NCBI GenBank assembly: GCA_943368005.1
Contig: CALRKN020000008.1
Span: forward strand, 75,705-139,704
Direction of reading: 5' to 3'
Origin: Bradyrhizobium ivorense
Lineage (GTDB): Bacteria > Cyanobacteriota > Cyanobacteriia > PCC-6307 > Cyanobiaceae
Length of the DNA stretch: 64,000 nucleotides
In this document: piece after piece, positions 3,635-58,320 of the stretch
Layout of the letters: each line of letters opens with the position of its first letter
Position numbering within the stretch: position 1 is the stretch's first letter
The notes under the pieces: generated by a model
Databases searched by the model: none
What the model saw: the letters and a program-made list of their open reading frames with translations, nothing else
What the model was told of the DNA's origin: nothing
Translations under genes and position numbers: made by a program

Positions 3635-4471
3635 CTACGGGTGGCCCTCCAGCGTGCTGGTCACCCGTTCCACAATCTGCCCATGGCTCAGGTGCTGGCA
3701 GGCTTCTGCGGTGCCTGCCCGCAGCCACACCAGGTACTCGTGATTTCCCGCCGGGCCGGTCAGCGGTGAGGCCACCAGCCCGACTGCGGTCAGCCCCAGC
3801 CCTCCGGCCGCTGCAACCACACCGGCGATGGCATCGATGTGGGCGGCTGGATCGCGCACCACACCCCCTTTGCCGACCTGGGCCCTGCCCACCTCGAACT
3901 GGGGTTTGACCAGCAGCACCAGATCGAGATCAGCCTGGCCCCCAGCCGGCCCCAGCAGCCCGAGCAGCGCCGGCAGCACCAGGGCCAGGGAAATGAACGA
4001 CACATCCGCAACGGCCAGGTCGGCCATGGGATCCTCCGGGCCATAGAGCTCGGCAGCGGTGAGATGGCGCAGGTTGGTTCGCTCCCGCAGGATCACCCTG
4101 GGGTCGCTGCGCAGGCTCCAGGCCGTCTGGCCGTAGCCCACATCAATCCCGTACACCCGGGCGGCCCCCCGCTGCAGCAGGCAGTCGGTGAACCCGCCGG
4201 TGGAGATGCCCCCATCCACACACACCCGGCCGGCGATGGGAATCGGGAACGCCTCCAGCGCCGCCTCCAGCTTTTCGCCGCCACGGGAGACAAAGCGCTG
4301 GGGCAGCTGCACCTCCAGGGGCAGTCCCGGGGTGACGTCCACGCCCGGCTTGTCGAGCACCCGATCGCCACTGCGCACCCGGCCGGCCCGGATCAGCTGC
4401 TGGGCCTGCTGGCGGCTGACCGCCAGCCCCCGCTGCACCAGTTCCAGGTCCAGACGTTGCTTGCGCGCCAT
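3635..4471 (-). CDS. tlyA: TlyA-family rRNA 2'-O-methyltransferase (S4 + FtsJ-like domains)
   Basis: ATG at 4471 gives MARKQRLDLELVQRGLAVSRQQAQQLIRAGRVR (S4 RNA-binding). SAM motif: VCVDGGISTGGFTDCLLQRGAARVYGIDVG. The ORF track's longer start (4504) adds 11 unconserved residues. Confidence 0.85.
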   Translation of the reverse strand: MARKQRLDLELVQRGLAVSRQQAQQLIRAGRVRSGDRVLDKPGVDVTPGLPLEVQLPQRFVSRGGEKLEAALEAFPIPIAGRVCVDGGISTGGFTDCLLQRGAARVYGIDVGYGQTAWSLRSDPRVILRERTNLRHLTAAELYGPEDPMADLAVADVSFISLALVLPALLGLLGPAGGQADLDLVLLVKPQFEVGRAQVGKGGVVRDPAAHIDAIAGVVAAAGGLGLTAVGLVASPLTGPAGNHEYLVWLRAGTAEACQHLSHGQIVERVTSTLEGHP

Positions 4472-4583
4472 GGCTGTGATCATTCCACACAGCAATTGGA
4501 ACAAAGTCCAAGGAAGTGCAGGCCCACCCCCAACTCACCAGAAGATTGCTGCACCGGATCCCCATCCAACCGCTTCAGCTGCA

Positions 4584-4811
4584 ATGGCCTTGCCGAGTTC
4601 CAGCCATGCCGCCTCCCCACCGGGCCACGCTGCCGTGGTGGAGCTGTTGCGGCCGGGCAGCTTCGTGCGGCTGCGCAACCAGCCGGCCGATCTGCCCCCC
4701 TTTCAGCTGATCCAGTGCCGCGGCGGGCGCTGCTGGGTGCGTCAACAGGCCTGGGGAACCCTGGTGCAGTGGGAAGTGGCCCACCAGCACCTCACCAGCG
4801 TCGCAGCCTGA
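4584..4811 (+). CDS. Small hypothetical protein (75 aa) upstream of purB
   Basis: ATG at 4584 inside the 4188..4811 ORF. The region fills the tlyA-purB gap, and the sequence VRLRNQPADLPPFQLIQCRGGRCWVRQQAWGTLVQWEV does not look like a high-GC shadow frame. I recognise no family. Confidence 0.35.
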   Translation: MALPSSSHAASPPGHAAVVELLRPGSFVRLRNQPADLPPFQLIQCRGGRCWVRQQAWGTLVQWEVAHQHLTSVAA

Positions 4812-4861
4812 CCCGGTGCCGACGACCCATACATTGGTCTGGCTGTGAGCCCCCCGCGGCC

Positions 4862-6157
4862 TTGATCGAGCGTTACACCCTGCCCGAGATGGGCAACCTC
4901 TGGAGCGAAGAGGCCAAGTTCCAGAGTTGGCTGGATGTGGAGATCGCCGCCACCGAGGCCAACGCCGAACTCGGCCGGGTGCCCGCCGAGGCCGTGACCA
5001 CGATCAAGGAAAAGGCCCGCTTCTCGGTGCCGCGCATCCTTGAGATCGAGGCGGAGGTGCGCCACGACGTGATCGCCTTCCTCACCAACGTGAACGAGCA
5101 CGTGGGCGAGGCCGGCCGCCACATCCACGTGGGCATGACCAGCTCGGATGTGCTCGACACCGGCCTGGCGCTGCAGATGAAAGCCTCGGTCCGGCTGCTG
5201 CGTGCCGAGCTCGACCAGCTGGCCGAGGCCATCCGCAACCTTGCCTGCGAGCACAAGGCCACCGTGATGATCGGCCGCAGCCATGCCATCCATGGCGAGC
5301 CCATCACCTTCGGCTTCAAGCTGGCCGGCTGGCTGGCGGAGGTGGAACGCAACCGCGAACGGCTCGAGCGACTGGAGCGGGTGGTGAGTGTGGGCCAGAT
5401 CTCCGGCGCCATGGGCACCTACGCCAACACCGATCCCCAGGTGGAGGAGATCGCCTGCCGCAGGCTGGGCCTAGTGCCCGACACCGCCAGCACCCAGGTG
5501 ATCTCCCGCGACCGGCACGCCGAATACGTGCAGACCCTGGCCCTGGTGGGGGCGGCCCTGGAGCGCTTTTCCACCGAAATCCGCAACCTGCAGCGCACCG
5601 ATGTGCTGGAGGTGGAAGAGAACTTCGCCAAGGGCCAGAAGGGCAGCTCCGCCATGCCCCACAAGCGCAATCCGATCCGCAGCGAGCGCATCGGCGGCCT
5701 GGCCCGGGTGCTGCGCAGCTACGTGGTGGCGGCGCTGGAGAACTGCGCCCTCTGGCACGAGCGCGACATCAGCCACAGTTCAGTGGAGCGGATGATGCTG
5801 CCCGATTGCTCGGCCACGCTGCACTTCATGCTGCGCGAGATGACCGAGGTGGTGAAGGGCCTGGGCGTCTACCCCGACAACATGGCCCGCAACATGAACG
5901 TGTACGGCGGCGTGGTGTTCAGCCAGCGGGTGCTGCTGGCCCTGGTGGAGAGCGGCATCAGCCGTGAGGATGCCTACCGGATCGTGCAGCGCAACGCCCA
6001 CAGCGCCTGGAACACCGAGGGCGGTGACTTCCGCGCCAACCTGGAGGCCGATGCGGAGGTGACCTGCCGCCTCAGCCCCGCCCAACTGGCGGAGTGCTTC
6101 TCCACCGAACTGCACCAAGCCCACCTCGATGTGGTCTGGCAGCGGCTGGGGATCTGA
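4862..6157 (+). CDS. purB: Adenylosuccinate lyase
   Basis: An in-frame TTG at 4862 gives a 431-aa protein starting LIERYTLPEMGNLWSEEAKFQSWLDVEIA. Fumarate-lyase signature GSSAMPHKRNP. The upstream part of the 3839..6157 ORF is antisense to tlyA and is not PurB-like. Confidence 0.9.
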   Translation: MIERYTLPEMGNLWSEEAKFQSWLDVEIAATEANAELGRVPAEAVTTIKEKARFSVPRILEIEAEVRHDVIAFLTNVNEHVGEAGRHIHVGMTSSDVLDTGLALQMKASVRLLRAELDQLAEAIRNLACEHKATVMIGRSHAIHGEPITFGFKLAGWLAEVERNRERLERLERVVSVGQISGAMGTYANTDPQVEEIACRRLGLVPDTASTQVISRDRHAEYVQTLALVGAALERFSTEIRNLQRTDVLEVEENFAKGQKGSSAMPHKRNPIRSERIGGLARVLRSYVVAALENCALWHERDISHSSVERMMLPDCSATLHFMLREMTEVVKGLGVYPDNMARNMNVYGGVVFSQRVLLALVESGISREDAYRIVQRNAHSAWNTEGGDFRANLEADAEVTCRLSPAQLAECFSTELHQAHLDVVWQRLGI

Positions 6158-6209: not shown

Positions 6210-7589
6210 TCAGTTACCGGACAGGATCCGGAACAGCGAGGCCGCATTCAGCAGGGGGCCCAAAGGAGCCACCGCCTGGGCCAGGAAGTCGTTGCCGCGT
6301 GTCCAGCCATTGCGCGGCACGATCACCACGTCGCCGTTGTGGAGAGCGGGGTTCGCCGGTGAATCCAGGGGCGCTGCGGGATCGAACACGATGGTGCGCG
6401 CCGACACGCTGCCATCGCTCTCCAGGCGAAGCAGGCGCATGTCCCGGGGGTTGGCCCGCAGCGGATTCACGTCTCCGGCCGCCATCACGGCAGCGACCAA
6501 AGGACTGTTGGAGCGCACCTGCTGCAGGCCTGGGGTCTTCACCTCTCCCACCACGGTCACACCGATGGTGCCGGGAGCAAAGTTGGAGGCGGCGGTTCGG
6601 ATCAGAACCTGGTTGGGCTGGACCCCTTCGGCCCGGTTCACCTGCACCATGTCGCCGTCATAGAGAAGGGGGTTCACCGTGGTACCTCCCTCCATCAACA
6701 CGCGCAGATAGTCGAAGCGGTACTCCACAGGTGGGCCGCCCGGAATCGCGCTGGGGCGCTGCAGCACGACATTCGAGAGGTCGGCCACGGCGGTGATGCC
6801 CCCCGCCCGTTGCACCGCATCGACCAGCGTGGGCCAGCCGGCACTCTGAATCTGGGTACCCCCCGCCGCCGGACCGGCTGCCTGGAGATTGGCGCTACCA
6901 GGGCCCTGGGTAAGGCTGTAGAAGCCAGGCTTCTGCACTTCGCCCACCATGGTGATCCGCACCGGCCTGGGGGCCAGCAGGTCGAGATACACCAGGGGGC
7001 GGCGCAGGTAGCGGTCGTAACCGGCGGTGATGCGTTGGCGGGCCTCATCCATGGTGAGCCCCCAAACCGGCACAGAGCCCAGCCGCGGCAGGTTGATCGT
7101 GCCGTCGCTGAGCACCTCCACTTCGGCCTCGTAGCCCTCCACCTTGAACACCGACATCCGCAGGCGATCTCCGGGGCCGAGTCGGTAGCGGAAACCCCGG
7201 CCGGGGTCGGTGGACGGGGCCATGGCCACCGGGGACCGGACCAGACCGGGTGCGGGCACGGCTGCGGGCCGCGGGGCGGGAACCGCAACCGGTGCGCGGG
7301 GGGGGCTGGAGGGGGCAGAAGGGGACATGCCGGGCTGGGGAGCCGTCGTCTCCTCCTGCGGGAGGGGGAACACCGGGCGCTGGGGCTGGGCGGCTGCGGG
7401 ATCCCAGGGGCCCAGGAGCGTGACGGCAGCCAGCCATCCGGCCAGGGACCCAGGTACGACGGCTCGAGGACGGGAAGTGGGCAAGGCGGTGCGACGGCAG
7501 TGGGACAGGGGACGGGACGGGGGCTGCAGCTCTCGGCGGGGACTGTCCCAGGCTCTGGTCGAGCTAATCTTCCCGCACCTTGCACCCAA
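6210..7589 (-). CDS. Outer-membrane polysaccharide export protein (OPX; Wza/KpsD-like, Poly_export + SLBB domains)
   Basis: Poly_export block: YRLGPGDRLRMSVFKVEGYEAEVEVLSDGTINLPRLGSVPVWGLTMDEARQRITAGY. Repeated SLBB-like blocks: VGEVQKPGFYSL, VVGEVKTPGLQQV. Hydrophobic signal-like segment: GSLAGWLAAVTLLG. The true start is uncertain; an in-frame TTG near 7470 is possible. Confidence 0.8.
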   Translation of the reverse strand: MGARCGKISSTRAWDSPRRELQPPSRPLSHCRRTALPTSRPRAVVPGSLAGWLAAVTLLGPWDPAAAQPQRPVFPLPQEETTAPQPGMSPSAPSSPPRAPVAVPAPRPAAVPAPGLVRSPVAMAPSTDPGRGFRYRLGPGDRLRMSVFKVEGYEAEVEVLSDGTINLPRLGSVPVWGLTMDEARQRITAGYDRYLRRPLVYLDLLAPRPVRITMVGEVQKPGFYSLTQGPGSANLQAAGPAAGGTQIQSAGWPTLVDAVQRAGGITAVADLSNVVLQRPSAIPGGPPVEYRFDYLRVLMEGGTTVNPLLYDGDMVQVNRAEGVQPNQVLIRTAASNFAPGTIGVTVVGEVKTPGLQQVRSNSPLVAAVMAAGDVNPLRANPRDMRLLRLESDGSVSARTIVFDPAAPLDSPANPALHNGDVVIVPRNGWTRGNDFLAQAVAPLGPLLNAASLFRILSGN

Positions 7590-7627
7590 TCGTGAAGGCG
7601 AAGGAAGGGAGCCCTCCCGGCGGAGCC

Positions 7628-8563
7628 ATGCTGAACCCCCCTGGCCCGGTTTCCCTCCCGCTCCAGCTGGTCGAACGGGAACTTTCCAGCTTTCGCCTGT
7701 ACTCGTCCCAGGGCCTCGACCTCTACCTGCTGCCAGGTGAGCGCTTCGCCCCCTACGCCGATGCGGTGGGCATCCTCAGGGAGCTCACCTACCGCCAGCA
7801 GCTCTCAGGTTCAGGCCACAGCCACGACCTCGACAGCCGGGATCCCCACTACGACCACTTCCTCCTAGTGGAGGGCAGCAGTGGCGAACTGGCCGGTTCC
7901 GCCCGCCTGCAATTCGTGCCCCAGTGCCACGAGGCCGAAGCGGAGCTGCGGCTGCCCCAGGGGTCGCAGTCCTATTTGGAACACGTCTATCCCGGCCTGA
8001 AGGCCTCATTGGCCCGCCAGGGCAACCACTTGGAAATCGGCCGGGTCGCCCTCGCCCCCCGCTTCCAGCGGCTTCCCCACACGCTGATGTGCCTGTTCCG
8101 GGGAGGCCTGCAGGTGGCCGTGAGCTCCGGCTACGGCTCCATTCACGGGTTGGTGTCGTACAACCACTTCGCCCATGCCGATGCCGTGAACGAGCGGTTC
8201 CTGAGCAGCCTGATGCGGCCGCCGTTCCTGGATACCCGCCAACCCTGCCCCCAGCCCCGCCACCCCCTGGAAGCCATCCAGGCCAGCACCAGTCCGGGCC
8301 CGACGCACACGATCCAGGAACTGGAGCAGCTGATCCGCGCCGAATTGGCGCCCTCGTTCCGCCTGCCCGTGCTGCTGCGCCAGTACATCAACCTGATGGA
8401 GGCACGGGTGCGCAACCTCTCCCTGGCCCGCGATTTCAACCAGATCACCGAGATCCTGATGGCCGCCGACCTCAAGCGGATACCCAGTCGTCGCCTCAGC
8501 CATTTCATCGACTTTGCCCATGAGCCCGTCTACCGGCGCTTCAGCTGGTACCGCGGTGGCTGA
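7628..8563 (+). CDS. GNAT-type N-acyltransferase of the OlsB/hemolysin-like family (Acetyltransf_5-like)
   Basis: Blocks line up by eye with OlsB-type enzymes: LRELTYRQQ...DSRDPHYDHFLLV, GSARLQF, LEIGRVALAPRFQR, LPVLLRQYINLMEA, FNQITEILMAADL. ATG at 7628; the track's alternative start is 7580. Confidence 0.65.
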   Translation: MLNPPGPVSLPLQLVERELSSFRLYSSQGLDLYLLPGERFAPYADAVGILRELTYRQQLSGSGHSHDLDSRDPHYDHFLLVEGSSGELAGSARLQFVPQCHEAEAELRLPQGSQSYLEHVYPGLKASLARQGNHLEIGRVALAPRFQRLPHTLMCLFRGGLQVAVSSGYGSIHGLVSYNHFAHADAVNERFLSSLMRPPFLDTRQPCPQPRHPLEAIQASTSPGPTHTIQELEQLIRAELAPSFRLPVLLRQYINLMEARVRNLSLARDFNQITEILMAADLKRIPSRRLSHFIDFAHEPVYRRFSWYRGG

Positions 8564-8620
8564 ACAGCCCCATGCGGACTGGTACGTTTTCATGGATCTG
8601 GAGCTCGGGAAGGGGTTTTG

Positions 8621-8977
8621 ATGCGAGTTGGCCCCGAGCACGAGATCTCCGGAGCTGCCGCGTCCCCCTCCCCAGAGACCGGTCTGATCGACCGGGCCCC
8701 TGCCCTTGACAGGCCGGTGGATCAGGAAGAACTTCAACAGCGGCTGCAGGAAATCCTGCAGCGCATCTCGGGCGCCGATCCCCAGCTGATCACCCCGGAC
8801 GCCCGCCTGATCGAAGACATCGGCATCGATTCGCTCGGGTTCTACGAGATCCTGATCGAGGCAGACGAGTGCCTGGGCATCAAGATCCGCGAGGAAGACC
8901 TGCTCAGCTTCCGCACCGTGGGCGATATTCAACAGCATCTGCGGAGCCTGGAGACCCCTGATGCCCAGGCCCACTGA
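8621..8977 (+). CDS. Stand-alone acyl carrier protein (with about 35-aa N-terminal extension)
   Basis: Phosphopantetheine attachment motif IEDIGIDSLGFYEILIEAD (DSL) within a 4-helix ACP-length core. A GGGAAGGGG purine run lies upstream of the ATG. Confidence 0.8.
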   Translation: MRVGPEHEISGAAASPSPETGLIDRAPALDRPVDQEELQQRLQEILQRISGADPQLITPDARLIEDIGIDSLGFYEILIEADECLGIKIREEDLLSFRTVGDIQQHLRSLETPDAQAH

Positions 8978-10211
8978 ACGCCTGGCGGTCACCGGCTGGG
9001 GGTGCATCACGCCCCTGGGGTTGGGCGTAGAGGCCACCTGGGAAGCCAGCCTGGCCGGTCGCTCCGGCATCTCGGCTGTGGGCGATGACTGGGCAACTGA
9101 TCTGCCCGCCCGGATTGCGGGTCGGGTGTCCGGCGAGTTCAACGCCAACCTTGAGCCGTTGCTGCAACGGCGGCTGGACCGCTGCTCCCAGCTGGCACTG
9201 CTGGCGGCGCGTCAGGCCTGGGCGAACGCTGCTGACCATTGCGGCGGCGTTGATCCCCGTCGCGTCGCGGTGGTGATCGGCACCGGAATCGGTGGACTGG
9301 CCACCCTGGAGCGCCAGCACACCAACCTGCTGCAGGCCGGTCCTGGCCGGGTGAACCCGCTCACCGTGCCGATGTTGATTGCCAACGCGGCGGCCGGCCA
9401 GATCGCCATCGACCTGGGGCTGCACGGCGGAGCCCACACCCCCGTGTCCGCCTGTGCCGCCGGAGCCGAGGCCCTGCTGCTCGCCCAGATGCTGCTGCAG
9501 GACGACCGGGCCGACGTGGTGCTGGCCGGAGGCAGCGAAGCGCCCGTGAACCGGCTTGGACTGGTGGGCTTCGCCGCCATGCGCGCCCTTTCCTGTCGCA
9601 ACGCATCTCCCGAGCTTGCCTCCCGGCCCTATGCCCAGGACCGGGATGGCTTTGTGCTCTCCGAAGGGGCGGGTGTGCTGGTGCTGCAGCGCGCCGCGGA
9701 TCTGGCCAGCTCCACCCCGCCTGTGCATGGCTGGCTCCAGGCCTGCGGCAGCAGCAGCGACGGCCACCACATCGTGGCCCCGGAACCGGATGGGCTGCAG
9801 GCCAGCCAGGCGATCACCGATGCGCTGCGCCGTGCCGGGCTGGATGCCAGTGACCTGTCGTTTGTCCAGGCCCACGCCACCGGCACACCCGTGGGCGACC
9901 TGGCCGAGGCCAGGGCCCTGCGACGCGGCCTAGGCAGCGCCCTGGATTCCCTGCCTGTCACCGCGCCCAAAGGCCAGCTGGGCCATCTGCTCGGGGCGGC
10001 GGGAGCCGTGGAAACGATCCTGGCGCTCCAGGCCCTGCGTCAGGGTGTAGTGCCCCGGAGTGTCAATGCAATTCCCCAGGATCCGGCCGTGGATCTGGCG
10101 GTGGTGAAGGATGGTCCCCTCACTCTGGGTGCCCGGGGGAGCGAACGCTTCGGGCTGAAGAACGCCTTTGGCTTCGGTGGCCACAACATCAGTCTGATCC
10201 TGGCTGCATAA
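8961..10211 (+). CDS. Beta-ketoacyl-ACP synthase (KAS I/II, Cys-His-His type)
   Basis: 416 aa. RLAVTGWGCITPLG, active-site PVSACAAGAEAL, HATGTPVGD, GHLLGAAGAVE, FGFGGHN. The start overlaps the ACP stop by 17 nt. Confidence 0.9.
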   Translation: MPRPTERLAVTGWGCITPLGLGVEATWEASLAGRSGISAVGDDWATDLPARIAGRVSGEFNANLEPLLQRRLDRCSQLALLAARQAWANAADHCGGVDPRRVAVVIGTGIGGLATLERQHTNLLQAGPGRVNPLTVPMLIANAAAGQIAIDLGLHGGAHTPVSACAAGAEALLLAQMLLQDDRADVVLAGGSEAPVNRLGLVGFAAMRALSCRNASPELASRPYAQDRDGFVLSEGAGVLVLQRAADLASSTPPVHGWLQACGSSSDGHHIVAPEPDGLQASQAITDALRRAGLDASDLSFVQAHATGTPVGDLAEARALRRGLGSALDSLPVTAPKGQLGHLLGAAGAVETILALQALRQGVVPRSVNAIPQDPAVDLAVVKDGPLTLGARGSERFGLKNAFGFGGHNISLILAA

Positions 10212-12234
10212 ATGCCGTGGTGCGGGCGTAGTACGCCTGCACCGCGCGCGCAAAGGTCTGGCGATCGCATCCCTGTTCAGCGAGGCCCGGGTCGCCGAGG
10301 CCCAAGTCTGCCGCCCGACCACGGCGGCAATGAATGGTGGCCAACGGAGCCTGCAGCCTGGAGAGCAGCAGACGCAGCGGACGGTAGAGATCCTGGGCGG
10401 ACATGGAAAGCCCGTGATAGGTGAACGTCCAGGGCACGATCAGGGCCCGATGCTTCCTCGCCAACAGCAGGGCACTGGCCGAAACGCGCTCACTGATCGG
10501 CGTGACCAGTGATCCATTCGGCGCCAACATCACCAGTCCCAGCTCTGCCAGGGTGCGGGAGGCCCGATACACCGCGGAGGTGCGCGATCGGCCATCGCGA
10601 TGGTCCAGCAAACCATGGCCGGCATTAGCCGCCGAAGCTCCGAACCAGGGCATGATGCGGCTCAGATGCAAGCTGGCCGTGGTGATGCTGGGCAGCTGAA
10701 GCACGCCCTGTACAACCAGAACATCCACGGGATTTTCATGGTTCCAGATATAAACAACAGCACGTCCAGAAGGCTCACTCGGTTGGCTGTCATCCACCAC
10801 AACAGTTACACCCAAGGCACGTAGGCCCACTTGGGCCGTGCATACCAGGAGCTGGGCTGCCAACCTGCGCTGGCCCAGGGCGAGCGCCAGGAGCTGGATG
10901 CCGTAAATCAGAAAATAGGAAACCCCCAGACCCAGTCGCCAGACCATCCGCCAAGGCACAATCCAGCTCCCCGTCACGGGCGGGCGAGGAGCATCGGGCA
11001 ACCGCGGTGCGGGCGCCAGGCGGCGCGCCTCCGGACCGATCGGGAAAGTGATCCGAAAGGGAAAATCACCATCAAAATTGCCATTCACCTGGGTTGTGGT
11101 CACCAGGTGGGCATAGAAGCGGTAGAAGAGGGGCCGCTCACTGGTCTGGGGGTTCAGCCAGAACTGATCCAGCGGATTCTGATCGGTGAGGCCAGAGAGA
11201 TTGTAGAAGGTGCGACCCATCACCTTGGTGGGAACGGCATGGTAAAGAGCCTGCAGTCCCACCGTGCTGTTCACGGTTACTACACCTCGACAGGTTCGCA
11301 GAAATCGACTGAGAGCGCCATCATGAAAATAATGAACTCTCCCATCAACGCCATAACGACTCGCCATCAACTGGATCAGACGACCATAATTGTTATAGCC
11401 TCGGTCCCGAGGGTGGTGCTTGAAAGCGAGATGGTCTGAAGCATGGGCATGCGTGGCAAACGAGCGAATCACATCTTCGATGAATTCATGCATGCCGCGA
11501 TAGGGAGAACCGAGCTGGATCTGGGAGTCGCTGGACACCTGCAGCACCACCAGAAAAAACGACAAGTGCTCCAGCAGCCGGCGCTTCAACCCACGCTCCT
11601 GCCAGCGATACAGCCAGAAGCGCCAGCTACCCCTCAGTTGGCACCATAAAAAGCGCGGCGATGGCTGCAGCTTATGTTCACCTTCAATAATTGGATATCG
11701 GGTGAATGCGTGCTGGATGAAGGTGGGCGCCTTCCAGATCTTGCGCCAGCGCCAGCCGGGATCAAGGCAGCCGCCCGGCAATTGGTTCACGGGTGGAAGG
11801 CCGCGATAGAACTCAACGGGCCGATTGAGATTGGAGCGCGCATTCACCCGATCCCGTTCCAAACTCACATAATTGGGACGGATATACCCCAACTCAAACA
11901 CCCAGGCCTCCACGCCGGCGCTCTGGGCCTCCTCAATGGCAATGCGATGGGGAATAATGAAGTCCCCATACATAAAGATATGGCGGATACCACGCTCTGC
12001 CAACAGTCGGCGCAGAAAGGGCCGCCATTCCTCCATGCTCCCTGAGAAGGGAACCTTCACCTCCGCAGGAAAACCAAACTCCTGGAGGGGAAAAGCAACT
12101 TTGACAACCGGAATTCCGCAGCCCCGCAAATAGCGACAGAACCGCGCAAAAAACAAGCCGATTGGCCCCATCAGCAACAGCACCGGGCCATCGATCCGCA
12201 CCTGAACCAGAGCTGGAGCCCGATCGCCTGCCAC
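10189..12234 (-). CDS. kpsS: KpsS-like capsule beta-Kdo transferase (Capsule_synth) fused to a C-terminal membrane-anchored HX4D acyltransferase (PlsC/OlsA, LPLAT family)
   Basis: aa 15-395 are KpsS-like: VKVAFPLQEF, HIFMYGDFIIPHRIAIEEA, WVFELGYIRPNYVSLERDRVNARSNL, LQVSSDSQI, FKHHPRD, VVTVNSTVGLQAL. A Pro-rich linker and a TM follow (WRMVWRLGLGVSYFLIYGIQLLALAL). Then come IWNHENPVD (HX4D, aa 499-504), APNGSL (FPEGT-equivalent) and LIVPW. Confidence 0.8.
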   Translation of the reverse strand: MAGDRAPALVQVRIDGPVLLLMGPIGLFFARFCRYLRGCGIPVVKVAFPLQEFGFPAEVKVPFSGSMEEWRPFLRRLLAERGIRHIFMYGDFIIPHRIAIEEAQSAGVEAWVFELGYIRPNYVSLERDRVNARSNLNRPVEFYRGLPPVNQLPGGCLDPGWRWRKIWKAPTFIQHAFTRYPIIEGEHKLQPSPRFLWCQLRGSWRFWLYRWQERGLKRRLLEHLSFFLVVLQVSSDSQIQLGSPYRGMHEFIEDVIRSFATHAHASDHLAFKHHPRDRGYNNYGRLIQLMASRYGVDGRVHYFHDGALSRFLRTCRGVVTVNSTVGLQALYHAVPTKVMGRTFYNLSGLTDQNPLDQFWLNPQTSERPLFYRFYAHLVTTTQVNGNFDGDFPFRITFPIGPEARRLAPAPRLPDAPRPPVTGSWIVPWRMVWRLGLGVSYFLIYGIQLLALALGQRRLAAQLLVCTAQVGLRALGVTVVVDDSQPSEPSGRAVVYIWNHENPVDVLVVQGVLQLPSITTASLHLSRIMPWFGASAANAGHGLLDHRDGRSRTSAVYRASRTLAELGLVMLAPNGSLVTPISERVSASALLLARKHRALIVPWTFTYHGLSMSAQDLYRPLRLLLSRLQAPLATIHCRRGRAADLGLGDPGLAEQGCDRQTFARAVQAYYARTTAFMQPGSD

Positions 12235-12286: not shown

Positions 12287-14257
12287 TCAACGCCGGCGCA
12301 ACCGCCCCCAGTGGCGGAAGATGCGCTGCCGCAGGCTCAGGGGTTCGGGCGGGGCGGACCGCCAGGCCAGCAACTCCTCGATCGCCTGCTCCGGCTCGAT
12401 GAACAGGCCGCTGTGGCGGCTCACATAGCGGGGGTAGTCGATCAGCGCCGCATGCACGAGGGCATCCAACTCCAGGGAGCGACCGCGCCGTTCACAGCGG
12501 AGCCTGTCGTGGCTCAGACCCCAGCCCGCATAGAAGGGCAGTCCCCAGGTGTGCACCTCGAGTCCGCGGAGCAGGGCCTCAAAGCCGGCGATCGAAGTGA
12601 GCACATGCAGGGCATCGATCTGGGTGAAGAGTTGCTGAATCGAGGCTTCGAACAGCACCTCATCGCAGCCCTGGGCCACCTGGGCCTCGCCCACCCCCTG
12701 GCGACACAGGCCTGCCACCACATCGGGATGGGGCTTGTATACGAGATAGGCGTCGGGTTCCGCCTGGCGCACCGCCGCCACCAGCTCCAGGTTGCGGGCG
12801 ACACCCGGTGCCCCCAGCCGGATGGAGGCATCCGACTCCACCTGCCCCACCACCAGCACCACCCGCCCGGCCGCGGCGGGACGCTGCCAGGCGGGAGCCC
12901 GGAGGTTGTATTTGGTAATCGCCTGGCTCACCAGCTGGCGGCGCAGCTCGGCCGCCCGTCGCAGCTGGCCCTCACTCCAGCTGCCATGGGCCAGCAGGTG
13001 CTCCAGGTCACTGGGGGCTGTGGCGTCGTAGTAGATCCCGCGACGGTCCAGCACCCAGGAGATGGGATCGATCAGATCGGCCCCCAGACCCACCGAGCGC
13101 AGGAAGCCGTCCTCCACATGCAGCAGCGCCAGCCGGCGATGTTCCACCTGCCGGAGCAACCGGGTGCTGGCCCGGCGACCCCAGATCGCCACCAGGGCAG
13201 CGGAGCGGCCCGGGCGCTGCCAGGAAAAGCGAAACCGCAGCGGCGGACCCGCCAGGAAACGACGCAGCACCCGCTGCTTCCACGGGGTGAAACCGAAGGC
13301 CTCCACCGGCCCGGGCTGGGCCAGCCGCAGGCGGCGCTGCAGGCCGATGGCGGCGATCAACTGTTCCGGCGTGCAGGGCTGGTGGCGATGGGGATCGATG
13401 TACACCGCCGACTCCACCAGGGCGGCATGCACCAGGTCGGCCAGCTGCGGCGACTCCCCCTGCTGGCGGCGCCGCGGAGCCGCCAGGGCATCCGTCGTGA
13501 GTCCCCAGCCTGCATAGAACGGCAGGCCGAAGCAGTGCACCGGCCGCCCGCAGAGGAGGGCCTCGAAGCCCAGCTGGGACGTGACCACATACACCGCCTC
13601 AGCGCGCTCTAGCAGGGCAATGGGATGGCCGCCGCTGGCCTCAAGCACGATGCGGGGATCCGCCAGCTGCCGGCGGCTGAAGTGGCCGCGCTTGCGGCCG
13701 GCCACCACATCCGGGTGGGTCTTGACCACCACCCGGCAGTGCGGATGGGAGGCCAGCGCCGCCGTGAGCATGGCGCCGAACTGTGGTGCCGAGGCCGCAC
13801 CGAGGCGGATCGAGAGGTCTCCGGCGGTCTGGTCGACCACCAGCACGTAGGGCCCTGACGGAGCGGGCGCCTCCGCCGCCCCGTTGTACTTGCTCACCCG
13901 CTGCTCTCGCCAGAGCTGCTGCAGACCCAGGGCACGCTCCCGCTCGGCGGTGCTGTGGGGTCGGGCAATCCGCTGCTCCAGGCGGCTGGGCACCGAGGCG
14001 TCGTAGTAAACGCCCAAGTCATCGAGCAGCAACCCCAGGGGTGCGCTATCCGGCCCCAGCCCCAGCGATCGCACCAGGGCATCTTCACAGCGCCAGAGGG
14101 GCAGGCCGCGGGTGGCCGCCAACTGTTCAGCTACACGGGCACTGGGCTTGCGGCCCCAGGCCAGCAGGGCATCGAGGGGCTCGCGGCGGCAGCGACGATG
14201 GCCGCACACCAGAGTGTGGGGTGCCAGCAGGGCCGGCAGGGTGCTGTGCCGAAGCAT
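12287..14257 (-). CDS. kpsC: KpsC-like capsule polysaccharide biosynthesis protein (two tandem Capsule_synth domains)
   Basis: Duplicated blocks: WGRKPSA...EDALVRSLGLG...GLLLDDLGVYYDAS and IWGRRAS...VEDGFLRSVGLGADLIDPISWVLDRRGIYYDAT. Each is followed by V(V)DQ..D.SI and KxHPDVVAG. The start is taken at the Met of MLRHSTLP (14257); the track ORF extends to 14494. Confidence 0.8.
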   Translation of the reverse strand: MLRHSTLPALLAPHTLVCGHRRCRREPLDALLAWGRKPSARVAEQLAATRGLPLWRCEDALVRSLGLGPDSAPLGLLLDDLGVYYDASVPSRLEQRIARPHSTAERERALGLQQLWREQRVSKYNGAAEAPAPSGPYVLVVDQTAGDLSIRLGAASAPQFGAMLTAALASHPHCRVVVKTHPDVVAGRKRGHFSRRQLADPRIVLEASGGHPIALLERAEAVYVVTSQLGFEALLCGRPVHCFGLPFYAGWGLTTDALAAPRRRQQGESPQLADLVHAALVESAVYIDPHRHQPCTPEQLIAAIGLQRRLRLAQPGPVEAFGFTPWKQRVLRRFLAGPPLRFRFSWQRPGRSAALVAIWGRRASTRLLRQVEHRRLALLHVEDGFLRSVGLGADLIDPISWVLDRRGIYYDATAPSDLEHLLAHGSWSEGQLRRAAELRRQLVSQAITKYNLRAPAWQRPAAAGRVVLVVGQVESDASIRLGAPGVARNLELVAAVRQAEPDAYLVYKPHPDVVAGLCRQGVGEAQVAQGCDEVLFEASIQQLFTQIDALHVLTSIAGFEALLRGLEVHTWGLPFYAGWGLSHDRLRCERRGRSLELDALVHAALIDYPRYVSRHSGLFIEPEQAIEELLAWRSAPPEPLSLRQRIFRHWGRLRRR

Positions 14258-14634
14258 GCCCACCGCCGGCAGGCCGAGGCGCACGGCGGCGCTGGAGTGG
14301 GCCAAGGCGGGGCAGGGGCCTGCGGCAGAGGCCCAAGTTACCGAAGGCGCGGCACGCCCATGGCTGCTACGTTCGCTCCACCCGATCACGGGCCATTCGC
14401 CCATGCAGCTCGAGGGTTTGACAGGACAGGCACTGGATGCCGTCTGCACAGCCGTGGCCACTGAAACCGGCGTTCCCGCCGGCCGGGTGCGCAAGGTTCT
14501 GCTGGCGGCACAGCGCCTGCACCAGGCCGGCGACCGGACTTCGACCGTTGAAAGGTCGACTGCCCCTCCCCACCCCCTGCGGTTCTATCCCCTTGGTGCA
14601 AACGGACGGATCCAGCCCCAGCCCCAGGCTGACC
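14258..14634. promoter_or_regulatory. Divergent intergenic region between kpsC/kpsS (-) and the neuA operon (+); presumed divergent promoters
   Basis: About 380 bp with no convincing CDS, between the two outward-facing gene sets. I recognised no specific promoter boxes. Confidence 0.3.
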
Positions 14635-15390
14635 ATGCCGCCGACCGGGCCCGTGATTGATCCCAATCTGGGACCGATCGCCCTGATTCCGGCCCGGGGA
14701 GGGTCGAAGGGAATCCCCGCCAAAAATCTGCAACGGGTGGGGGGCGTGCCCCTGGTGGTGCGCAGCGTGCAGGCGGCCCGCAGCGCCAGCAGCCTGCACG
14801 GCGTCTGGGTGAGCAGCGACGATCCGGCGATCGGCGAACACGCCGAAGCGGCCGGTGCCGGCTGGTTGCGCCGCCCTGGCACCCTCTCCGGTGATCAGGC
14901 CTCATCGGAGAGCGCCCTCACCCATGCCCTCGGGCTGTTGGCCGAACGGGGGCCCCTGCCCCCGCTGTTCGTGTTCCTGCAGTGCACCTCCCCGTTCACC
15001 ACCGGAACGGAAATCGATGCAGTGGTGGCGGCTCTACAGGGAAGCGCCGCCAACATGGCCTTCAGTGTGGTTCCCTGGCATGGATTCCTCTGGCGTGCTG
15101 ACGCCCACGGCCATGGCATCGGAGTGAACCACGACGCCCACCAACCCCGGCAGCGCCGTCAGGACCTCTGCCCCACCTATCTGGAGACGGGAGCCATCTA
15201 CGCCATGCGCACCGAAGCGTTTCTGCAGGCCGGCAGCCGCTTCCTCCAGCCCACCCTGCCGGTTCCGCTGGAGGGCTACGCCCCTGAAATCGACACCCCC
15301 GCCGATCTCGCTCTCTGTGAACGGCTGGCACCCCTGCTGGAGGGAGCTGGACAGCCGCCAGCGAAGCAAGCGCGGGCGGATCTGGGTTGA
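14635..15390 (+). CDS. neuA: Acylneuraminate (nonulosonate) cytidylyltransferase, NeuA-type (CTP_transf_3)
   Basis: ATG at 14635. IALIPARGGSKGIPAKNLQRVGGVPLV is the NeuA-type (not KdsB-type) P-loop. Also FVFLQCTSPF and YLETGAIYAM. Confidence 0.8.
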   Translation: MPPTGPVIDPNLGPIALIPARGGSKGIPAKNLQRVGGVPLVVRSVQAARSASSLHGVWVSSDDPAIGEHAEAAGAGWLRRPGTLSGDQASSESALTHALGLLAERGPLPPLFVFLQCTSPFTTGTEIDAVVAALQGSAANMAFSVVPWHGFLWRADAHGHGIGVNHDAHQPRQRRQDLCPTYLETGAIYAMRTEAFLQAGSRFLQPTLPVPLEGYAPEIDTPADLALCERLAPLLEGAGQPPAKQARADLG

Positions 15391-38467: not shown

Positions 38468-38912
38468 GTCAACGCCAGGCCGAGCTGCTCCTTACTCTCG
38501 CAGCAATGAGGTCTGGCGGAGCGGAACGACCTCCAGACAGAGGCCCCGGTGAACCAGCAGCCAGAGGGATGCGCCCGCCCCAGGCCCTGAACATATCCAC
38601 CGCCAGATCGGTTTCACCCGGCACTCCCTCATCCCACAGACGCTTCCGCGGCTGCCACGGGAATTGACGGCTGCTCGTGCCGCCATCAATCCTTGTCTGG
38701 CGGAGCCGCCAGCCGATCTACTGGCAAAACTGCGGAAATGTGTTGATGGCGGGAGTGAGCCCTCATGAATGCAGGAGAAGGTAGGCTGCCACCGAAGAGG
38801 TCGCCTGGGGGAGGCCAGATCAGCCGCCGCCAACTGGTCCGATGGGCAGCAGACATAATCCTGGGTAATCGATCAAAAGATGAATACCACTTCTGGAGAA
38901 ACAAGAAGTCAC

Positions 38913-42342: not shown

Positions 42343-43093
42343 CGACAGGCCGACCTGGAGACTGATGCTTGTTCGCTGAAAAAAGGGCAGATATGAGCTG
42401 AATAAATCTATACTGACTATGTCGATACTGCTGAATCAGCCCCAATGCCTTTGACTCTTTGAGTGTCATCTGAGAATGAGAACCGAGAAGCATTGAATCA
42501 AGCTTTGCACAGTGCTCATCAGATTCTCTCAAATGCCCTAAAGCAATAGCAAGCTTTCTGCGAAGACGATTTGAGCTATCATGATAGTCGCGCGACCAAC
42601 AATCCAAGACTGAGTTTACGGTGATATTCAGTGCTAATCTGTCGACGCAATCAAAGTCAGGTTCAGATCCAAATCTGATACTCTTATCTTCTAGAAAGCG
42701 GTATGCAGCTGCAAGTTGTGGCGAAAGCCTGAGAATCTCTTTCGTAAGGATTGACAGAACAGGATCTGAAGAATTAGGGAGGCCAATTGATTCGTGCCTA
42801 TAATCGGACGACTGAGTATCGATCAGATTCCTTACTGCTGCCAGCGGAATTTTTTCAAATCTCCAAAGAGCGCATATGAAATATCCTCGCTCGGCAAGCG
42901 CATATGCATTCATTATGTCTTCCACTGATTTAGCGCTTTCCGTGAATATACTCTCCAGGCCAGGATAGAGTACTAGTGTATGATTTCTATCGCTTTGATT
43001 TATAGAAACTTTCTTAAGCCCAGCTTGGTGAAGCAGATCCAAACCGGCTTGAGAAACCGCATGAGGCCCAATCCAGCTCAACAGTCTTGCCAT
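42326..43093 (-). CDS. Hypothetical protein (family A, copy 3); coupled to the downstream GT4
   Basis: 255 aa, low GC. The N-terminus LSWIGPHAVSQAGLDLLHQAGL and the block ILTKEILRLSPQLAAAYRFLED are collinear with copies 1 and 2. Overlaps the next gene by 17 nt. Confidence 0.55.
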   Translation of the reverse strand: MARLLSWIGPHAVSQAGLDLLHQAGLKKVSINQSDRNHTLVLYPGLESIFTESAKSVEDIMNAYALAERGYFICALWRFEKIPLAAVRNLIDTQSSDYRHESIGLPNSSDPVLSILTKEILRLSPQLAAAYRFLEDKSIRFGSEPDFDCVDRLALNITVNSVLDCWSRDYHDSSNRLRRKLAIALGHLRESDEHCAKLDSMLLGSHSQMTLKESKALGLIQQYRHSQYRFIQLISALFSANKHQSPGRPVDDLHG

Positions 43094-43220
43094 GGGAGTG
43101 AATAGCTATCCGACCAAAGAGAGAAGATGATCGCGCAGGCAATTGGTATCGAATAAAGTGACTGAAGACATCCAATTCAAAGATCATCCATGCGTGCACT
43201 TCAATACTTAGTACTGATGG

Positions 43221-58264: not shown

Positions 58265-58320
58265 GGCAGTGGAGCAACCCTAGCCTGGGTGCCCAACCCC
58301 ACTTGCCCAGCGGCACGCCC

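What the first reader, a model, noticed from the sequence alone, without database searches (positions are those of the whole stretch)
10189..12234. KpsS fused to a membrane-anchored HX4D (PlsC/OlsA-family) acyltransferase
One 681-aa ORF carries the following, in order:
- A full KpsS-like Capsule_synth domain (aa ~15-395).
- A Pro-rich linker.
- A hydrophobic span (aa ~423-452).
- An LPLAT acyltransferase domain with NHENPVD (HX4D, aa 499-504), APNGSL (the FPEGT position) and IVPW.

KpsS is the enzyme that places the first beta-Kdo on the lipid acceptor. Coupling it physically to an acyltransferase implies that acceptor-lipid remodelling or synthesis and priming glycosylation are channelled in one polypeptide. 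I do not recall this architecture for characterised KpsS proteins.
Basis: partly seen in the sequence, partly recalled or inferred. Interest (0 to 1): 0.7.

Follow-up and report, generated by a model that had tools for sequence, protein, structure and literature searches.

The report
KpsS fused to lipid acyltransferase
A picocyanobacterial capsule gene really does join the enzyme that starts the polysaccharide on its lipid anchor to a membrane-bound lipid acyltransferase. It always sits beside an ornithine-lipid-type N-acyltransferase, which suggests these abundant phototrophs build their own capsule anchor lipid rather than borrow a membrane phospholipid.

Summary
ORF 10189-12234 (-) is one intact 681-aa gene. 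It carries a KpsS-like beta-Kdo glycosyltransferase domain with its QXXXD nucleophile motif, a Pro-rich disordered linker, two membrane helices, and a PlsC-fold acyltransferase with HX4D.

It is not an assembly artefact. The same ORF occurs in three independent assemblies. The fusion was also found in all 80 loci returned of 130 related genomes, all picocyanobacteria (Cyanobium, Synechococcus, Vulcanococcus).

The acyltransferase motifs are invariant in 62 fused homologues. One marine subclade has lost them, and its sampled locus carries an intact standalone copy next door. In some Prochlorococcus the two halves are separate, overlapping genes.

The new finding is the context. The pair always lies beside an OlsB/OlsF-type N-acyltransferase (PF13444). 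In this clade a dedicated ACP and a KAS II are there too. All sit inside a KpsC/KpsD(/KpsM/KpsT) core.

N-acyltransferase plus PF01553 O-acyltransferase is the two-step logic of aminolipid synthesis. The best reading is therefore that a dedicated capsule lipid anchor is assembled and primed at one site. The substrate is unknown, and a lyso-PG route remains a serious rival.

I found no published description. I rate it a new variant of a known kind.

The parts
10189..12234 (-). Whole fusion gene, 681 aa: KpsS-like glycosyltransferase, linker, two membrane helices, LPLAT acyltransferase. The stop codon is 10189-10191.
11074..12186 (-). KpsS-like retaining beta-Kdo glycosyltransferase domain (aa 17-387).
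   Evidence: Pfam PF05159, 194 bits. NCBIfam KpsS, 272.8 bits over positions 14-387 of 390. Foldseek matches KpsC (6MGD, 8FUX, 6MGB) and WbbB.
11527..11541 (-). QVSSD, the QXXXD motif with the putative Asp236 nucleophile.
   Evidence: Translation. Q232 and D236 are invariant in 62 homologues. The motif is defined in PMC10148158.
10963..11022 (-). Pro-rich interdomain linker (about aa 405-424).
   Evidence: Sequence. pLDDT is below 50 for aa 411-422. Length varies between homologues.
10816..10962 (-). Two helices (aa 425-452 hydrophobic, aa 456-473 amphipathic). They are equivalent to the PlsC N-terminal two-helix membrane anchor.
   Evidence: Helices. The Foldseek alignment to TmPlsC 5KYM spans 272 columns against a 241-residue target. 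Basic residues lie on both sides of the first helix.
10192..10809 (-). LPLAT (PlsC-fold) acyltransferase catalytic domain (aa 476-681).
   Evidence: Pfam PF01553, 28.7 bits. Family profile against 5KYM, E 1.3e-6. TM-score 0.59-0.60, normalised by the length of 5KYM.
10723..10740 (-). HENPVD, the HX4D catalytic motif (H499, D504).
   Evidence: Translation. N498, H499, P502 and D504 are invariant in 62 fused homologues and in the standalone homologues.
10501..10524 (-). APNGSLVT, a variant of LPLAT motif III (canonical FPEGTR). It lacks the Glu and the Arg.
   Evidence: Translation. P572, G574, S575, L576 and T578 are invariant. It aligns to FPEGT of 5KYM.
12287..14494 (-). KpsC-like dual-module beta-Kdo transferase. 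It lies directly upstream on the same strand with a 52-nt gap.
   Evidence: Pfam PF05159, 266.8 bits in 4 stretches. Syntenic in all loci where that flank is present.
8961..10211 (+). KAS II (FabF-like) condensing enzyme. It is convergent with the fusion gene and the two 3' ends overlap by 23 nt.
   Evidence: Pfam ketoacyl-synt N and C domains. NCBIfam PRK07314, 400 bits. Syntenic in the clade at 63% identity or more.
8618..8977 (+). Dedicated acyl carrier protein with a DSL phosphopantetheine site.
   Evidence: Pfam PP-binding. NCBIfam ACP models. Sequence ...IGIDSLGF....
7580..8563 (+). OlsB/OlsF-C-type GNAT N-acyltransferase (PF13444). The likely true start is at 7628, giving 311 aa.
   Evidence: Pfam Acetyltransf_5. 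NCBIfam OlsF positions 308-569, E 8e-13. The model matches AHL synthases and FeeM. It neighbours the KpsS/LPLAT pair in the loci whose flank is present.
6210..7589 (-). KpsD/Wza-type outer-membrane polysaccharide export protein. Gene calls give 387 aa.
   Evidence: Pfam Poly_export plus SLBB. Gene calls. Syntenic.

Best explanation
**What is shown.** The ORF is a genuine, conserved bifunctional enzyme with three parts.
- An N-terminal KpsS-type retaining ulosonic-acid (beta-Kdo) glycosyltransferase.
- A disordered Pro-rich linker followed by a PlsC-type two-helix membrane anchor.
- A C-terminal LPLAT O-acyltransferase that looks catalytically competent.

It is the centre of a kps core conserved across picocyanobacteria: KpsC, KpsS-LPLAT, an OlsB/OlsF-type N-acyltransferase, KpsD, and in relatives KpsM and KpsT. 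The window's clade adds a dedicated ACP and a KAS II.

**Proposed mechanism (inferred).** All steps take place at the cytoplasmic face of the inner membrane.
1. The ACP/KAS pair supplies a special acyl-ACP, probably 3-oxo or 3-hydroxy.
2. The GNAT enzyme forms an amide-linked first acyl chain on an amine-bearing head group.
3. The LPLAT domain adds the second, ester-linked chain. This is the same two-step logic as OlsB/OlsA and GlsB/GlsA.
4. The tethered KpsS domain places the first ulosonic acid on this dedicated lipid.
5. KpsC extends the linker, and serotype-specific transferases build the NulO-containing, sulfated polymer.

The fusion also gives the otherwise peripheral KpsS a membrane anchor.

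**Shown versus inferred.** Shown: the architecture, its conservation, the motifs, the folds and the gene linkage. Inferred: the order of steps, the acyl donor and the identity of the head group.
For: **Architecture and folds**
- Domains and motifs.
- The N-terminal domain matches KpsC and WbbB structures. The C-terminal domain matches TmPlsC 5KYM with TM 0.59-0.60, normalised by the length of 5KYM.
- A sequence profile of the C-terminal family hits 5KYM at E 1.3e-6, aligning HX4D, motif II and motif III.

**Conservation**
- More than 100 protein clusters at 50-97% identity carry both domains.
- 130 relatives were found among GTDB species genomes. The best 80 are all picocyanobacteria and all full length.

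**Evidence for catalysis**
- N498, H499, P502, D504, G539, H545, R551, P572, G574, S575, L576, T578 and P601 are invariant in 62 fused homologues.
- The core of these residues is also kept in standalone homologues.
- dN/dS of the LPLAT part is about 0.08-0.13 against the closest orthologues.
- The subclade with a degenerate fused domain (DGLSLFD, no GSL) has, in its one sampled locus, an intact standalone TM+LPLAT gene immediately downstream (L078).

**Linkage between the two halves**
- The C-terminal family has only 74 hits among 1.84 billion representatives. They comprise fused proteins, fragments, about 240-aa standalone proteins and a dozen giant repeat proteins that look spurious.
- Of five standalone proteins looked up, four follow a kpsS gene directly, one of them with a 4-nt overlap. 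The fifth has no kpsS nearby.

**N-acyltransferase partner**
- PF13444 with similarity to the OlsF C-terminal domain. Fold like AHL synthases and FeeM.
- Adjacent in both picocyanobacterial clades, in the most divergent fused loci L001, L093 and L094, in the Prochlorococcus-type locus L088, and in the split loci L003 and L004.

**Precedents from the literature**
- The two-step rule of an OlsB-type N-acyltransferase followed by a PF01553 O-acyltransferase, usually encoded by adjacent genes: PMC11631085.
- A dedicated acyltransferase making a capsule anchor, VexE with diacyl-HexNAc: PMC8760489.
Against: - There is no biochemical or lipidomic evidence of any kind.
- The LPLAT domain shows no specific similarity to OlsA or OlsF-N models. 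Only generic PlsC-type hits were obtained, all below NCBIfam cut-offs.
- The GNAT scores far below the OlsF cut-off (47.7 against 620 bits).
- All characterised KpsS enzymes use phosphatidylglycerol (PMC10148158), and cyanobacteria do contain PG (my own knowledge).
- No head-group-forming enzyme was identified.
- ACP and KAS are absent from the other clades, so they are not essential to the core.
- One Prochlorococcus standalone LPLAT lies far from any kpsS (L086).
- KpsM and KpsT are not in this window.
Confidence: 0.5

Rival explanations
1. **PG-based anchor with in-situ acylation.** The KpsS domain primes on (lyso)phosphatidylglycerol as in E. coli. The fused LPLAT domain is a lyso-PG or lyso-PG-Kdo acyltransferase that supplies, restores or tailors the second acyl chain of the anchor. 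The neighbouring GNAT would have an unrelated role, for example N-acylating a sugar.
For: - Characterised KpsS enzymes use PG, and mature anchors are reported as (lyso)PG (PMC10148158 and PMC7694667).
- The C-terminal domain's closest solved relative is a lysophosphatidate acyltransferase, 5KYM.
- Motif II keeps a conserved Arg, R551.
Against: - It leaves unexplained the adjacency of an OlsB-type N-acyltransferase at every examined locus that extends past the pair, across about 30% sequence identity.
- It also leaves the dedicated ACP and KAS unexplained.
- Motif III has lost the Glu and Arg of FPEGTR. From my own knowledge of PlsC, these residues are associated with binding the glycerol-phosphate acceptor.
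Confidence: 0.3
2. **The C-terminal module is mainly a membrane anchor or scaffold.** It would tether KpsS and recruit partners, with acyl transfer dispensable or vestigial.
For: - A marine Synechococcus subclade keeps the helices and the domain fold-length but has lost H499 and the GSL motif (P0067, P0068, P0071).
- E. coli-type KpsS lacks any membrane segment, so an anchor would be useful in itself.
Against: - The catalytic motifs are invariant in the other 62 fused homologues and in standalone forms.
- The LPLAT part is under purifying selection.
- The degenerate subclade's one sampled locus has an intact standalone LPLAT inserted next door (L078), as expected if catalysis is required.
- Standalone Prochlorococcus versions are not tethered to KpsS at all.
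Confidence: 0.1
3. **The LPLAT domain acylates the glycan.** It would add a fatty acyl group to the Kdo linker or the polymer rather than build the anchor lipid. A separate possibility is that the single ORF is an artefact of two genes joined by a sequencing error.
For: The donor sugar and the polymer are unknown. The locus is rich in decorating enzymes such as sulfotransferases and methyltransferases.
Against: - The PlsC-type two-helix membrane insertion argues for a lipid acceptor embedded in the membrane.
- The artefact reading is excluded by identical 681-aa calls in three independent assemblies and by single ORFs of 664-691 aa in 19 genomes.
Confidence: 0.07

Closest known systems
KpsS (LipB) of E. 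coli group 2 and Neisseria capsules; retaining beta-Kdo transferases with the Pfam Capsule_synth domain, to which KpsC also belongs
   Same: - A single GT module of about 390 aa, alignable end to end with the KpsS model.
- An invariant QXXXD motif.
- A fold like KpsC and WbbB.
- Encoded next to a dual-module KpsC and a KpsD exporter.
   Different: - It scores only 273 bits against the 600-bit equivalog cut-off.
- It carries a 280-aa C-terminal extension with membrane helices and an acyltransferase.
- The locus adds an OlsB-type N-acyltransferase, an ACP and a KAS.
- Neither the acceptor lipid nor the donor sugar has been verified.
PlsC (1-acyl-sn-glycerol-3-phosphate acyltransferase), Thermotoga maritima structure 5KYM; LPLAT family PF01553
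   Same: HX4D, motif II and motif IV are present. The N-terminal two-helix membrane motif and the alpha/beta core match, with TM 0.59-0.60 normalised by the length of 5KYM and profile E 1.3e-6.
   Different: - Motif III is P(N/S)GSLxT instead of FPEGTR.
- Scores lie far below the PlsC equivalog cut-offs.
- The family is tiny and isolated, with 74 representatives among 1.84 billion proteins, and in all but one place examined it is fused or adjacent to kpsS.
- It is not the housekeeping PlsC.
OlsB/OlsA, GlsB/GlsA and bifunctional OlsF (two-step aminolipid synthesis)
   Same: A PF13444 N-acyltransferase and a PF01553 O-acyltransferase are encoded side by side. The GNAT resembles the OlsF C-terminal domain. 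This matches the adjacency rule described in PMC11631085.
   Different: - The O-acyltransferase is fused to a glycosyltransferase, not to the N-acyltransferase.
- Neither protein reaches the family cut-offs.
- The pair is embedded in a capsule export locus.
- No aminolipid product has been shown.
VexE of the Salmonella Typhi Vi antigen system
   Same: A dedicated acyltransferase within an ABC-transporter-type capsule locus that makes the lipid terminus needed to retain the polymer at the cell surface (PMC8760489).
   Different: Vi loci lack kpsS and kpsC, and the anchor is a diacyl-HexNAc. VexE carries TPR repeats. Here the acyltransferase coexists with KpsS and KpsC and is physically fused to KpsS.

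Membership tests
KpsS-type retaining beta-Kdo glycosyltransferase (Capsule_synth, PF05159) | Match to Pfam PF05159 above the gathering score. | tested here: met
   194.1 bits against a cut-off of 20, aa 86-387.
KpsS-type retaining beta-Kdo glycosyltransferase (Capsule_synth, PF05159) | Equivalog-level match to the NCBIfam KpsS model NF050054. | tested here: not met
   272.8 bits against a cut-off of 600, although the alignment covers positions 14-387 of 390. It is therefore a divergent KpsS-like protein, not an annotated equivalog.
KpsS-type retaining beta-Kdo glycosyltransferase (Capsule_synth, PF05159) | Invariant QXXXD motif with the Asp nucleophile. | tested here: met
   QVSSD at aa 232-236. 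Q232 and D236 are invariant in 62 homologues. The motif is defined in PMC10148158.
KpsS-type retaining beta-Kdo glycosyltransferase (Capsule_synth, PF05159) | Fold shared with the solved beta-Kdo transferases KpsC and WbbB. | tested here: met
   Foldseek hits to 6MGD, 8FUX, 6MGB, 8CSB and 5FA0 at E 1e-6 to 1e-4.
KpsS-type retaining beta-Kdo glycosyltransferase (Capsule_synth, PF05159) | Transfers one beta-Kdo from CMP-Kdo to phosphatidylglycerol. | not testable with these tools
   This needs an enzyme assay. Neither the donor nor the acceptor can be read from the sequence.
LPLAT / PlsC acyltransferase (PF01553) | Match to Pfam PF01553 above the gathering score. | tested here: met
   28.7 bits against a cut-off of 23, aa 488-601. 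Relatives score 30-47 bits.
LPLAT / PlsC acyltransferase (PF01553) | HX4D catalytic dyad (motif I). | tested here: met
   H499 and D504. Invariant in 62 fused and 17 C-terminal-family sequences. Aligned to NHQSLMD of 5KYM.
LPLAT / PlsC acyltransferase (PF01553) | Canonical motif III, FPEGTR. | tested here: not met
   The motif is APNGSLVT. Pro, Gly and Ser/Thr are kept, but the Glu and Arg are replaced throughout the family.
LPLAT / PlsC acyltransferase (PF01553) | PlsC fold including the N-terminal two-helix membrane motif. | tested here: met
   5KYM TM 0.59-0.60, normalised by the length of 5KYM, over 268-272 columns. Helices at 425-452 and 456-473.
LPLAT / PlsC acyltransferase (PF01553) | Orthology to housekeeping PlsC (NCBIfam TIGR00530 and PRK15018 cut-offs). 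| tested here: not met
   25.8 bits against 102.95, and 14.3 bits against 501.
OlsB/OlsA-type two-step aminolipid synthase pair | An adjacent PF13444 N-acyltransferase and PF01553 O-acyltransferase. | tested here: met
   for the window. Conserved in related loci.
OlsB/OlsA-type two-step aminolipid synthase pair | Equivalog-level match of the N-acyltransferase to OlsF, OlsB or GlsB models. | tested here: not met
   OlsF 47.7 bits against 620, and GlsB 15.1 bits against 300. The similarity is at domain level only.
OlsB/OlsA-type two-step aminolipid synthase pair | The product is an acyloxyacyl-amide aminolipid. | not testable with these tools
   Needs lipidomics.
ABC-transporter-dependent (group 2-like) capsule system | KpsC, KpsS, KpsD, KpsM, KpsT and KpsE together. 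| tested here: inconclusive
   KpsC, KpsS and KpsD are in the window. No ABC2_membrane or ABC_tran protein was found among the ORFs scanned. KpsM and KpsT do follow the same core in L088 and L094.

The most novel reading that the evidence does not exclude
Picocyanobacteria, including abundant marine Synechococcus and some Prochlorococcus, attach a KpsS/KpsC-primed surface polysaccharide to a purpose-built lipid. That lipid would probably be phosphorus-free and of the acyloxyacyl-amide (aminolipid-like) type. It would be made by an OlsB-type N-acyltransferase and the LPLAT domain fused to KpsS. This would be a third class of anchor for ABC-transporter-dependent capsules, after PG-Kdo and diacyl-HexNAc. 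It would also show that a KpsS can prime on a non-phospholipid acceptor.
Probability: 0.3. Interest if true: 0.85.

Novelty: new variant of a known kind. Interest (0 to 1): 0.62.

Why it matters
- **Open question in capsule biology.** KpsS/KpsC priming on (lyso)phosphatidylglycerol is treated as the invariant first step of ABC-transporter-dependent capsule synthesis. How the acyl state of the anchor is set is still unresolved. A natural fusion of KpsS to an acyltransferase, kept together with an aminolipid-type N-acyltransferase across a whole phylogenetic group, gives a directly testable system for how anchor lipid and priming are coupled.
- **A possible new acceptor.** It hints that KpsS may accept lipids other than PG.
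- **Ecological relevance.** The organisms are among the most abundant phototrophs on Earth. Their surface polymers affect grazing, phage adsorption and carbon export. From my own knowledge, they economise on phospholipid under phosphorus scarcity, so a phosphorus-free anchor would make ecological sense.
- **Annotation.** Databases currently name these proteins either 'capsular polysaccharide export protein' or '1-acyl-sn-glycerol-3-phosphate acyltransferase'. Neither describes the two-domain enzyme.

Tried and rejected
- **Word-indexed homologue search with the C-terminal 282 aa.** It returned only 21 fragments from short contigs and said little. The exhaustive representative search was the informative one.
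- **The search for related loci with the diverse C-terminal alignment A4.** It failed because no stretch was conserved enough. I used the full-length alignment A2 instead.
- **My tblastn synteny table.** The 'LPLAT_C' query was cut one base out of frame, so that column is meaningless and is ignored. Fusion status rests coverage and on the ORF lengths.
- **KpsS-only relatives (P0076, P0077, P0119).** These looked like unfused forms. I examined only P0076, and it lies on a long-read contig in which KpsC and KAS are also split by frameshifts. I rejected it as evidence for unfused picocyanobacterial KpsS.
- **The 210-aa gene after the isolated Prochlorococcus LPLAT in L086.** I tested it as a possible GNAT remnant and found no similarity.
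- **The conserved gene of about 325 aa between the GNAT and KpsD in other clades.** I considered it as a substitute for ACP and KAS. It resembles Glyco_trans_1_2-type glycosyltransferases in the window instead.
- **dN/dS.** dS exceeds 1 in every pair, so the ratios are only rough.
- **Sequence search of the GNAT against PDB.** It gave nothing. The fold search was needed.
- **Literature searches.** No paper in the held library describes this architecture.

Full report
**1. The observation**

The window is high-GC (about 0.68) and comes from a Cyanobium/Synechococcus-type picocyanobacterium. Its closest relatives are MAGs labelled Cyanobium or Prochlorococcaceae.

- The ORF listing shows one uninterrupted ORF at 10189..12234 on the minus strand, 681 aa, GTG start.
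- Pfam finds Capsule_synth PF05159 at aa 86-387 (194 bits) and Acyltransferase PF01553 at aa 488-601 (28.7 bits, gathering score 23).
- The NCBIfam KpsS model aligns over almost its whole length (aa 17-387 on positions 14-387 of 390, 272.8 bits). This is well below the 600-bit equivalog cut-off.
HENPVD is aa 499-504, APNGSLVT is aa 571-578, and the Pro-rich linker and hydrophobic helix follow.
- The KpsS part carries QVSSD at aa 232-236. This is the QXXXD motif whose Asp is the covalent nucleophile in KpsC and WbbB (PMC10148158).

**2. It is not an artefact**

- The same 681-aa gene call, with the same neighbours, appears in three independent assemblies: one JGI metagenome and two Logan assemblies of different runs.
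- 19 orthologous loci each have a single ORF of 664-691 aa.
- The protein search returned more than 100 clusters at 50-97% identity that carry both Pfam domains.
- The scan of one genome per GTDB species found 130 relatives. The best 80 are all picocyanobacteria (Cyanobium, marine and freshwater Synechococcus, Vulcanococcus, Aphanothece) and all cover the full length. A few MAG titles are obviously mislabelled.
- The short 'KpsS-only' relative that I examined lies on a long-read contig in which KpsC and KAS are also broken by frameshifts.

**3. Structure**

- An AlphaFold model built on 62 homologues has mean pLDDT 85.5. It shows a disordered linker (aa 411-422), helices at 425-452 and 456-473, and then an alpha/beta domain.
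- Foldseek against the PDB matches the N-terminal part to the beta-Kdo transferases KpsC (6MGD, 8FUX, 6MGB) and WbbB.
- It matches the C-terminal part to the Thermotoga PlsC structure 5KYM, with TM 0.59-0.60 (normalised by the length of 5KYM) over about 270 columns. That span includes the N-terminal two-helix motif.
- A sequence profile of the C-terminal family also finds 5KYM (E 1.3e-6). It aligns HX4D, motif II and motif III.
- Basic residues flank the hydrophobic helix on both sides, and both domains need cytoplasmic donors. I therefore infer a monotopic, PlsC-like insertion rather than a membrane-spanning pass.

**4. Is the acyltransferase functional and tied to KpsS?**

- In 62 fused homologues, N498, H499, P502, D504, G539, H545, R551, P572, G574, S575, L576, T578 and P601 are invariant.
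- Against the closest orthologues, dN/dS is about 0.05-0.06 for the KpsS part and 0.08-0.13 for the LPLAT part. dS is saturated, so these are rough figures.
- An exhaustive HMMER search of 1.84 billion representative proteins with the C-terminal 282 aa gave only 74 hits at E <= 1e-3. These are fused proteins (down to 31-37% identity), fragments, standalone proteins of about 240 aa consisting of the helices plus the LPLAT domain, and a dozen giant repeat proteins matching only a short stretch, which look spurious.
- Of the five standalone proteins I looked up, four follow a kpsS-sized Capsule_synth gene directly, one of them with a 4-nt overlap (the kpsS match in L005 is). One cluster is named Prochlorococcus. 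The same pair therefore exists both fused and split.
- One marine Synechococcus subclade has a degenerate fused domain in which H499 and the GSL motif are lost. In its one sampled locus, an intact standalone TM+LPLAT gene is inserted directly after the fusion gene (L078). L034 carries such an extra copy as well. This is the pattern expected if the catalytic activity is needed by the module.
- There is one exception. A Prochlorococcus standalone copy sits next to lexA with no kpsS within 10 kb.

**5. The context is the main new finding**

Read in the direction of the fusion gene, the window carries these genes in order:

| Gene | Window coordinates | Strand |
|---|---|---|
| KpsC | 12287-14494 | - |
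| KpsS-LPLAT fusion | 10189-12234 | - |
| KAS II (convergent) | 8961-10211 | + |
| ACP with DSL site | 8618-8977 | + |
| PF13444 GNAT | 7580-8563 | + |
| KpsD-type exporter | 6210-7589 | - |

- The GNAT matches the C-terminal N-acyltransferase half of the bifunctional ornithine-lipid synthase OlsF (positions 308-569, E 8e-13) and weakly matches GlsB.
- Its AlphaFold model (pLDDT 81) resembles acyl-homoserine-lactone synthases, the N-acyl amino acid synthase FeeM and the CurA GNAT-L domain. The aminolipid review groups these same structures with OlsB in its N-acyltransferase comparison (PMC11631085).
- tblastn across 80 loci shows the whole block conserved in the clade at 63% identity or more. 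In the clade at 50-56% identity, the GNAT homologue follows the fusion directly, with no ACP or KAS.
- The GNAT is also the convergent downstream neighbour in the most divergent fused loci (L001, 32% identity, E 3e-30; L093), in a Prochlorococcus-type locus (L088), and in the split loci (L003 and L004, E 6e-11 and 2e-6). L094 has an unannotated 222-aa convergent gene at the same position, which I did not compare with the GNAT.
- L088 and L094 continue with KpsD, an ABC2_membrane protein (KpsM) and, in L088, an ABC_tran protein (KpsT). The conserved core is therefore KpsC, KpsS-LPLAT, GNAT, a GT-like protein of about 325 aa or ACP/KAS, KpsD, KpsM and KpsT.

**6. Mechanism**

A PF13444 N-acyltransferase followed by a PF01553 O-acyltransferase, usually encoded side by side, is the established two-step route to ornithine, glutamine and glycine lipids (PMC11631085). 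A dedicated acyltransferase that builds the lipid terminus of an ABC-transporter-type capsule is also known, namely VexE with its diacyl-HexNAc anchor (PMC8760489).

I therefore favour the following model (confidence about 0.5):
1. The GNAT makes an amide-linked first chain, fed in this clade by the locus ACP and KAS.
2. The LPLAT domain adds the ester-linked second chain.
3. The tethered KpsS domain places the first ulosonic acid on this purpose-built lipid.
4. KpsC extends the linker.

The variant motif III, which lacks the Glu and Arg of FPEGTR, fits an acceptor other than a glycerol-3-phosphate lipid. That last point is inference from general knowledge of PlsC.

The main rival (about 0.3) keeps PG as the acceptor and makes the LPLAT a lyso-PG or lyso-PG-Kdo acyltransferase. 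It agrees with everything known about characterised KpsS and with the unresolved '(lyso)PG' status of mature anchors. It leaves the GNAT, which neighbours the pair at every examined locus that extends far enough, unexplained. A pure anchor or scaffold role (about 0.1) is contradicted by the motif invariance and by the compensating standalone copy.

**7. Comparison and novelty**

- The protein works like a KpsS and like a PlsC-fold acyltransferase. It fails the equivalog thresholds of both, and its partner fails the OlsF threshold.
- It is best described as a divergent KpsS fused to a small, isolated LPLAT subfamily.
- Automated annotation already names these proteins 'capsular biosynthesis protein' or '1-acyl-sn-glycerol-3-phosphate acyltransferase', so the sequences are not new.
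- Five literature searches found no description or characterisation. The one phylum-wide survey that counted cyanobacterial KpsS/KpsC by Pfam domain did not note the fusion (PMC4594306).
- I rate it a new variant of a known kind.

**8. Limits**

- Everything functional is inferred from sequence, predicted structure and gene neighbourhood.
- The donor sugar, the acceptor head group, the acyl donor and the order of steps are all unknown.
- KpsM and KpsT are not in this window.

Noticed in passing
L078 8854-9705 (+); L034 12032-12820 (+): Some marine Synechococcus loci carry an extra standalone TM+LPLAT paralogue (262-283 aa, intact NHxNPLD and APNGSL) between the fusion gene and KAS. In L078 the fused domain is degenerate while the standalone copy is intact.
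   Followed up: partly
window 10189-12234 compared with its neighbours: The fusion gene has GC3 of 0.67 (0.64 for the KpsS part). Its neighbours have 0.78-0.86. Orthologues in L013 and L016 match their own surroundings. This suggests a recent allelic replacement or recombination from a lower-GC picocyanobacterium.
   Followed up: partly
window 38500-47000: A low-GC island (GC 0.44-0.48 against about 0.68) holds glycosyltransferases (GT1-type, GT61), a methyltransferase and several ORFs with no Pfam match. It is probably a horizontally acquired, serotype-specific block.
   Followed up: no
window 18359-21364 (+): A 1001-aa fusion protein combines CBS/KpsF-like, NeuB, SAF and a xylose-isomerase-like TIM barrel. 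It is preceded by a PseF-like cytidylyltransferase (14437-15390) and two DUF6716 putative glycosyltransferases. Together these imply a nonulosonic-acid polymer.
   Followed up: no
window 21361-22137 and 22207-23037 (+): Two sulfotransferases of different families (Sulfotransfer_2, and Sulfotransfer_1/3) lie side by side. The polymer is probably sulfated.
   Followed up: no
window 58183-59535 (+): A BNR-repeat (sialidase-like) protein lies in the same glycan-rich region.
   Followed up: no
L053 12930-13922; L088 12966-13931; L093 4987-5961; L094 5045-6043: A conserved protein of about 325 aa with no Pfam match (31-42% identity between the four) lies between the GNAT and KpsD in clades that lack ACP and KAS. 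It weakly resembles Glyco_trans_1_2-type transferases of the window. It may be a transition glycosyltransferase.
   Followed up: partly
L086 10001-10717: A Prochlorococcus standalone LPLAT of this family lies next to lexA with no kpsS within 10 kb. The following 210-aa gene is not a GNAT homologue. It is either a remnant or has a second use.
   Followed up: partly
window 3839-6157 (+): The 772-aa ORF over-extends adenylosuccinate lyase. Gene calls in identical contigs give 431 aa. In high-GC DNA the mechanical ORF list overstates N-termini. The same applies to KpsD (459 against 387 aa) and the GNAT (327 against 311 aa).
   Followed up: yes
clusters of P0152 and P0164: TARA annotations label the standalone LPLAT proteins with KEGG K07265 (kpsS). 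The fused architecture has presumably leaked into the KEGG orthologue definition.
   Followed up: no
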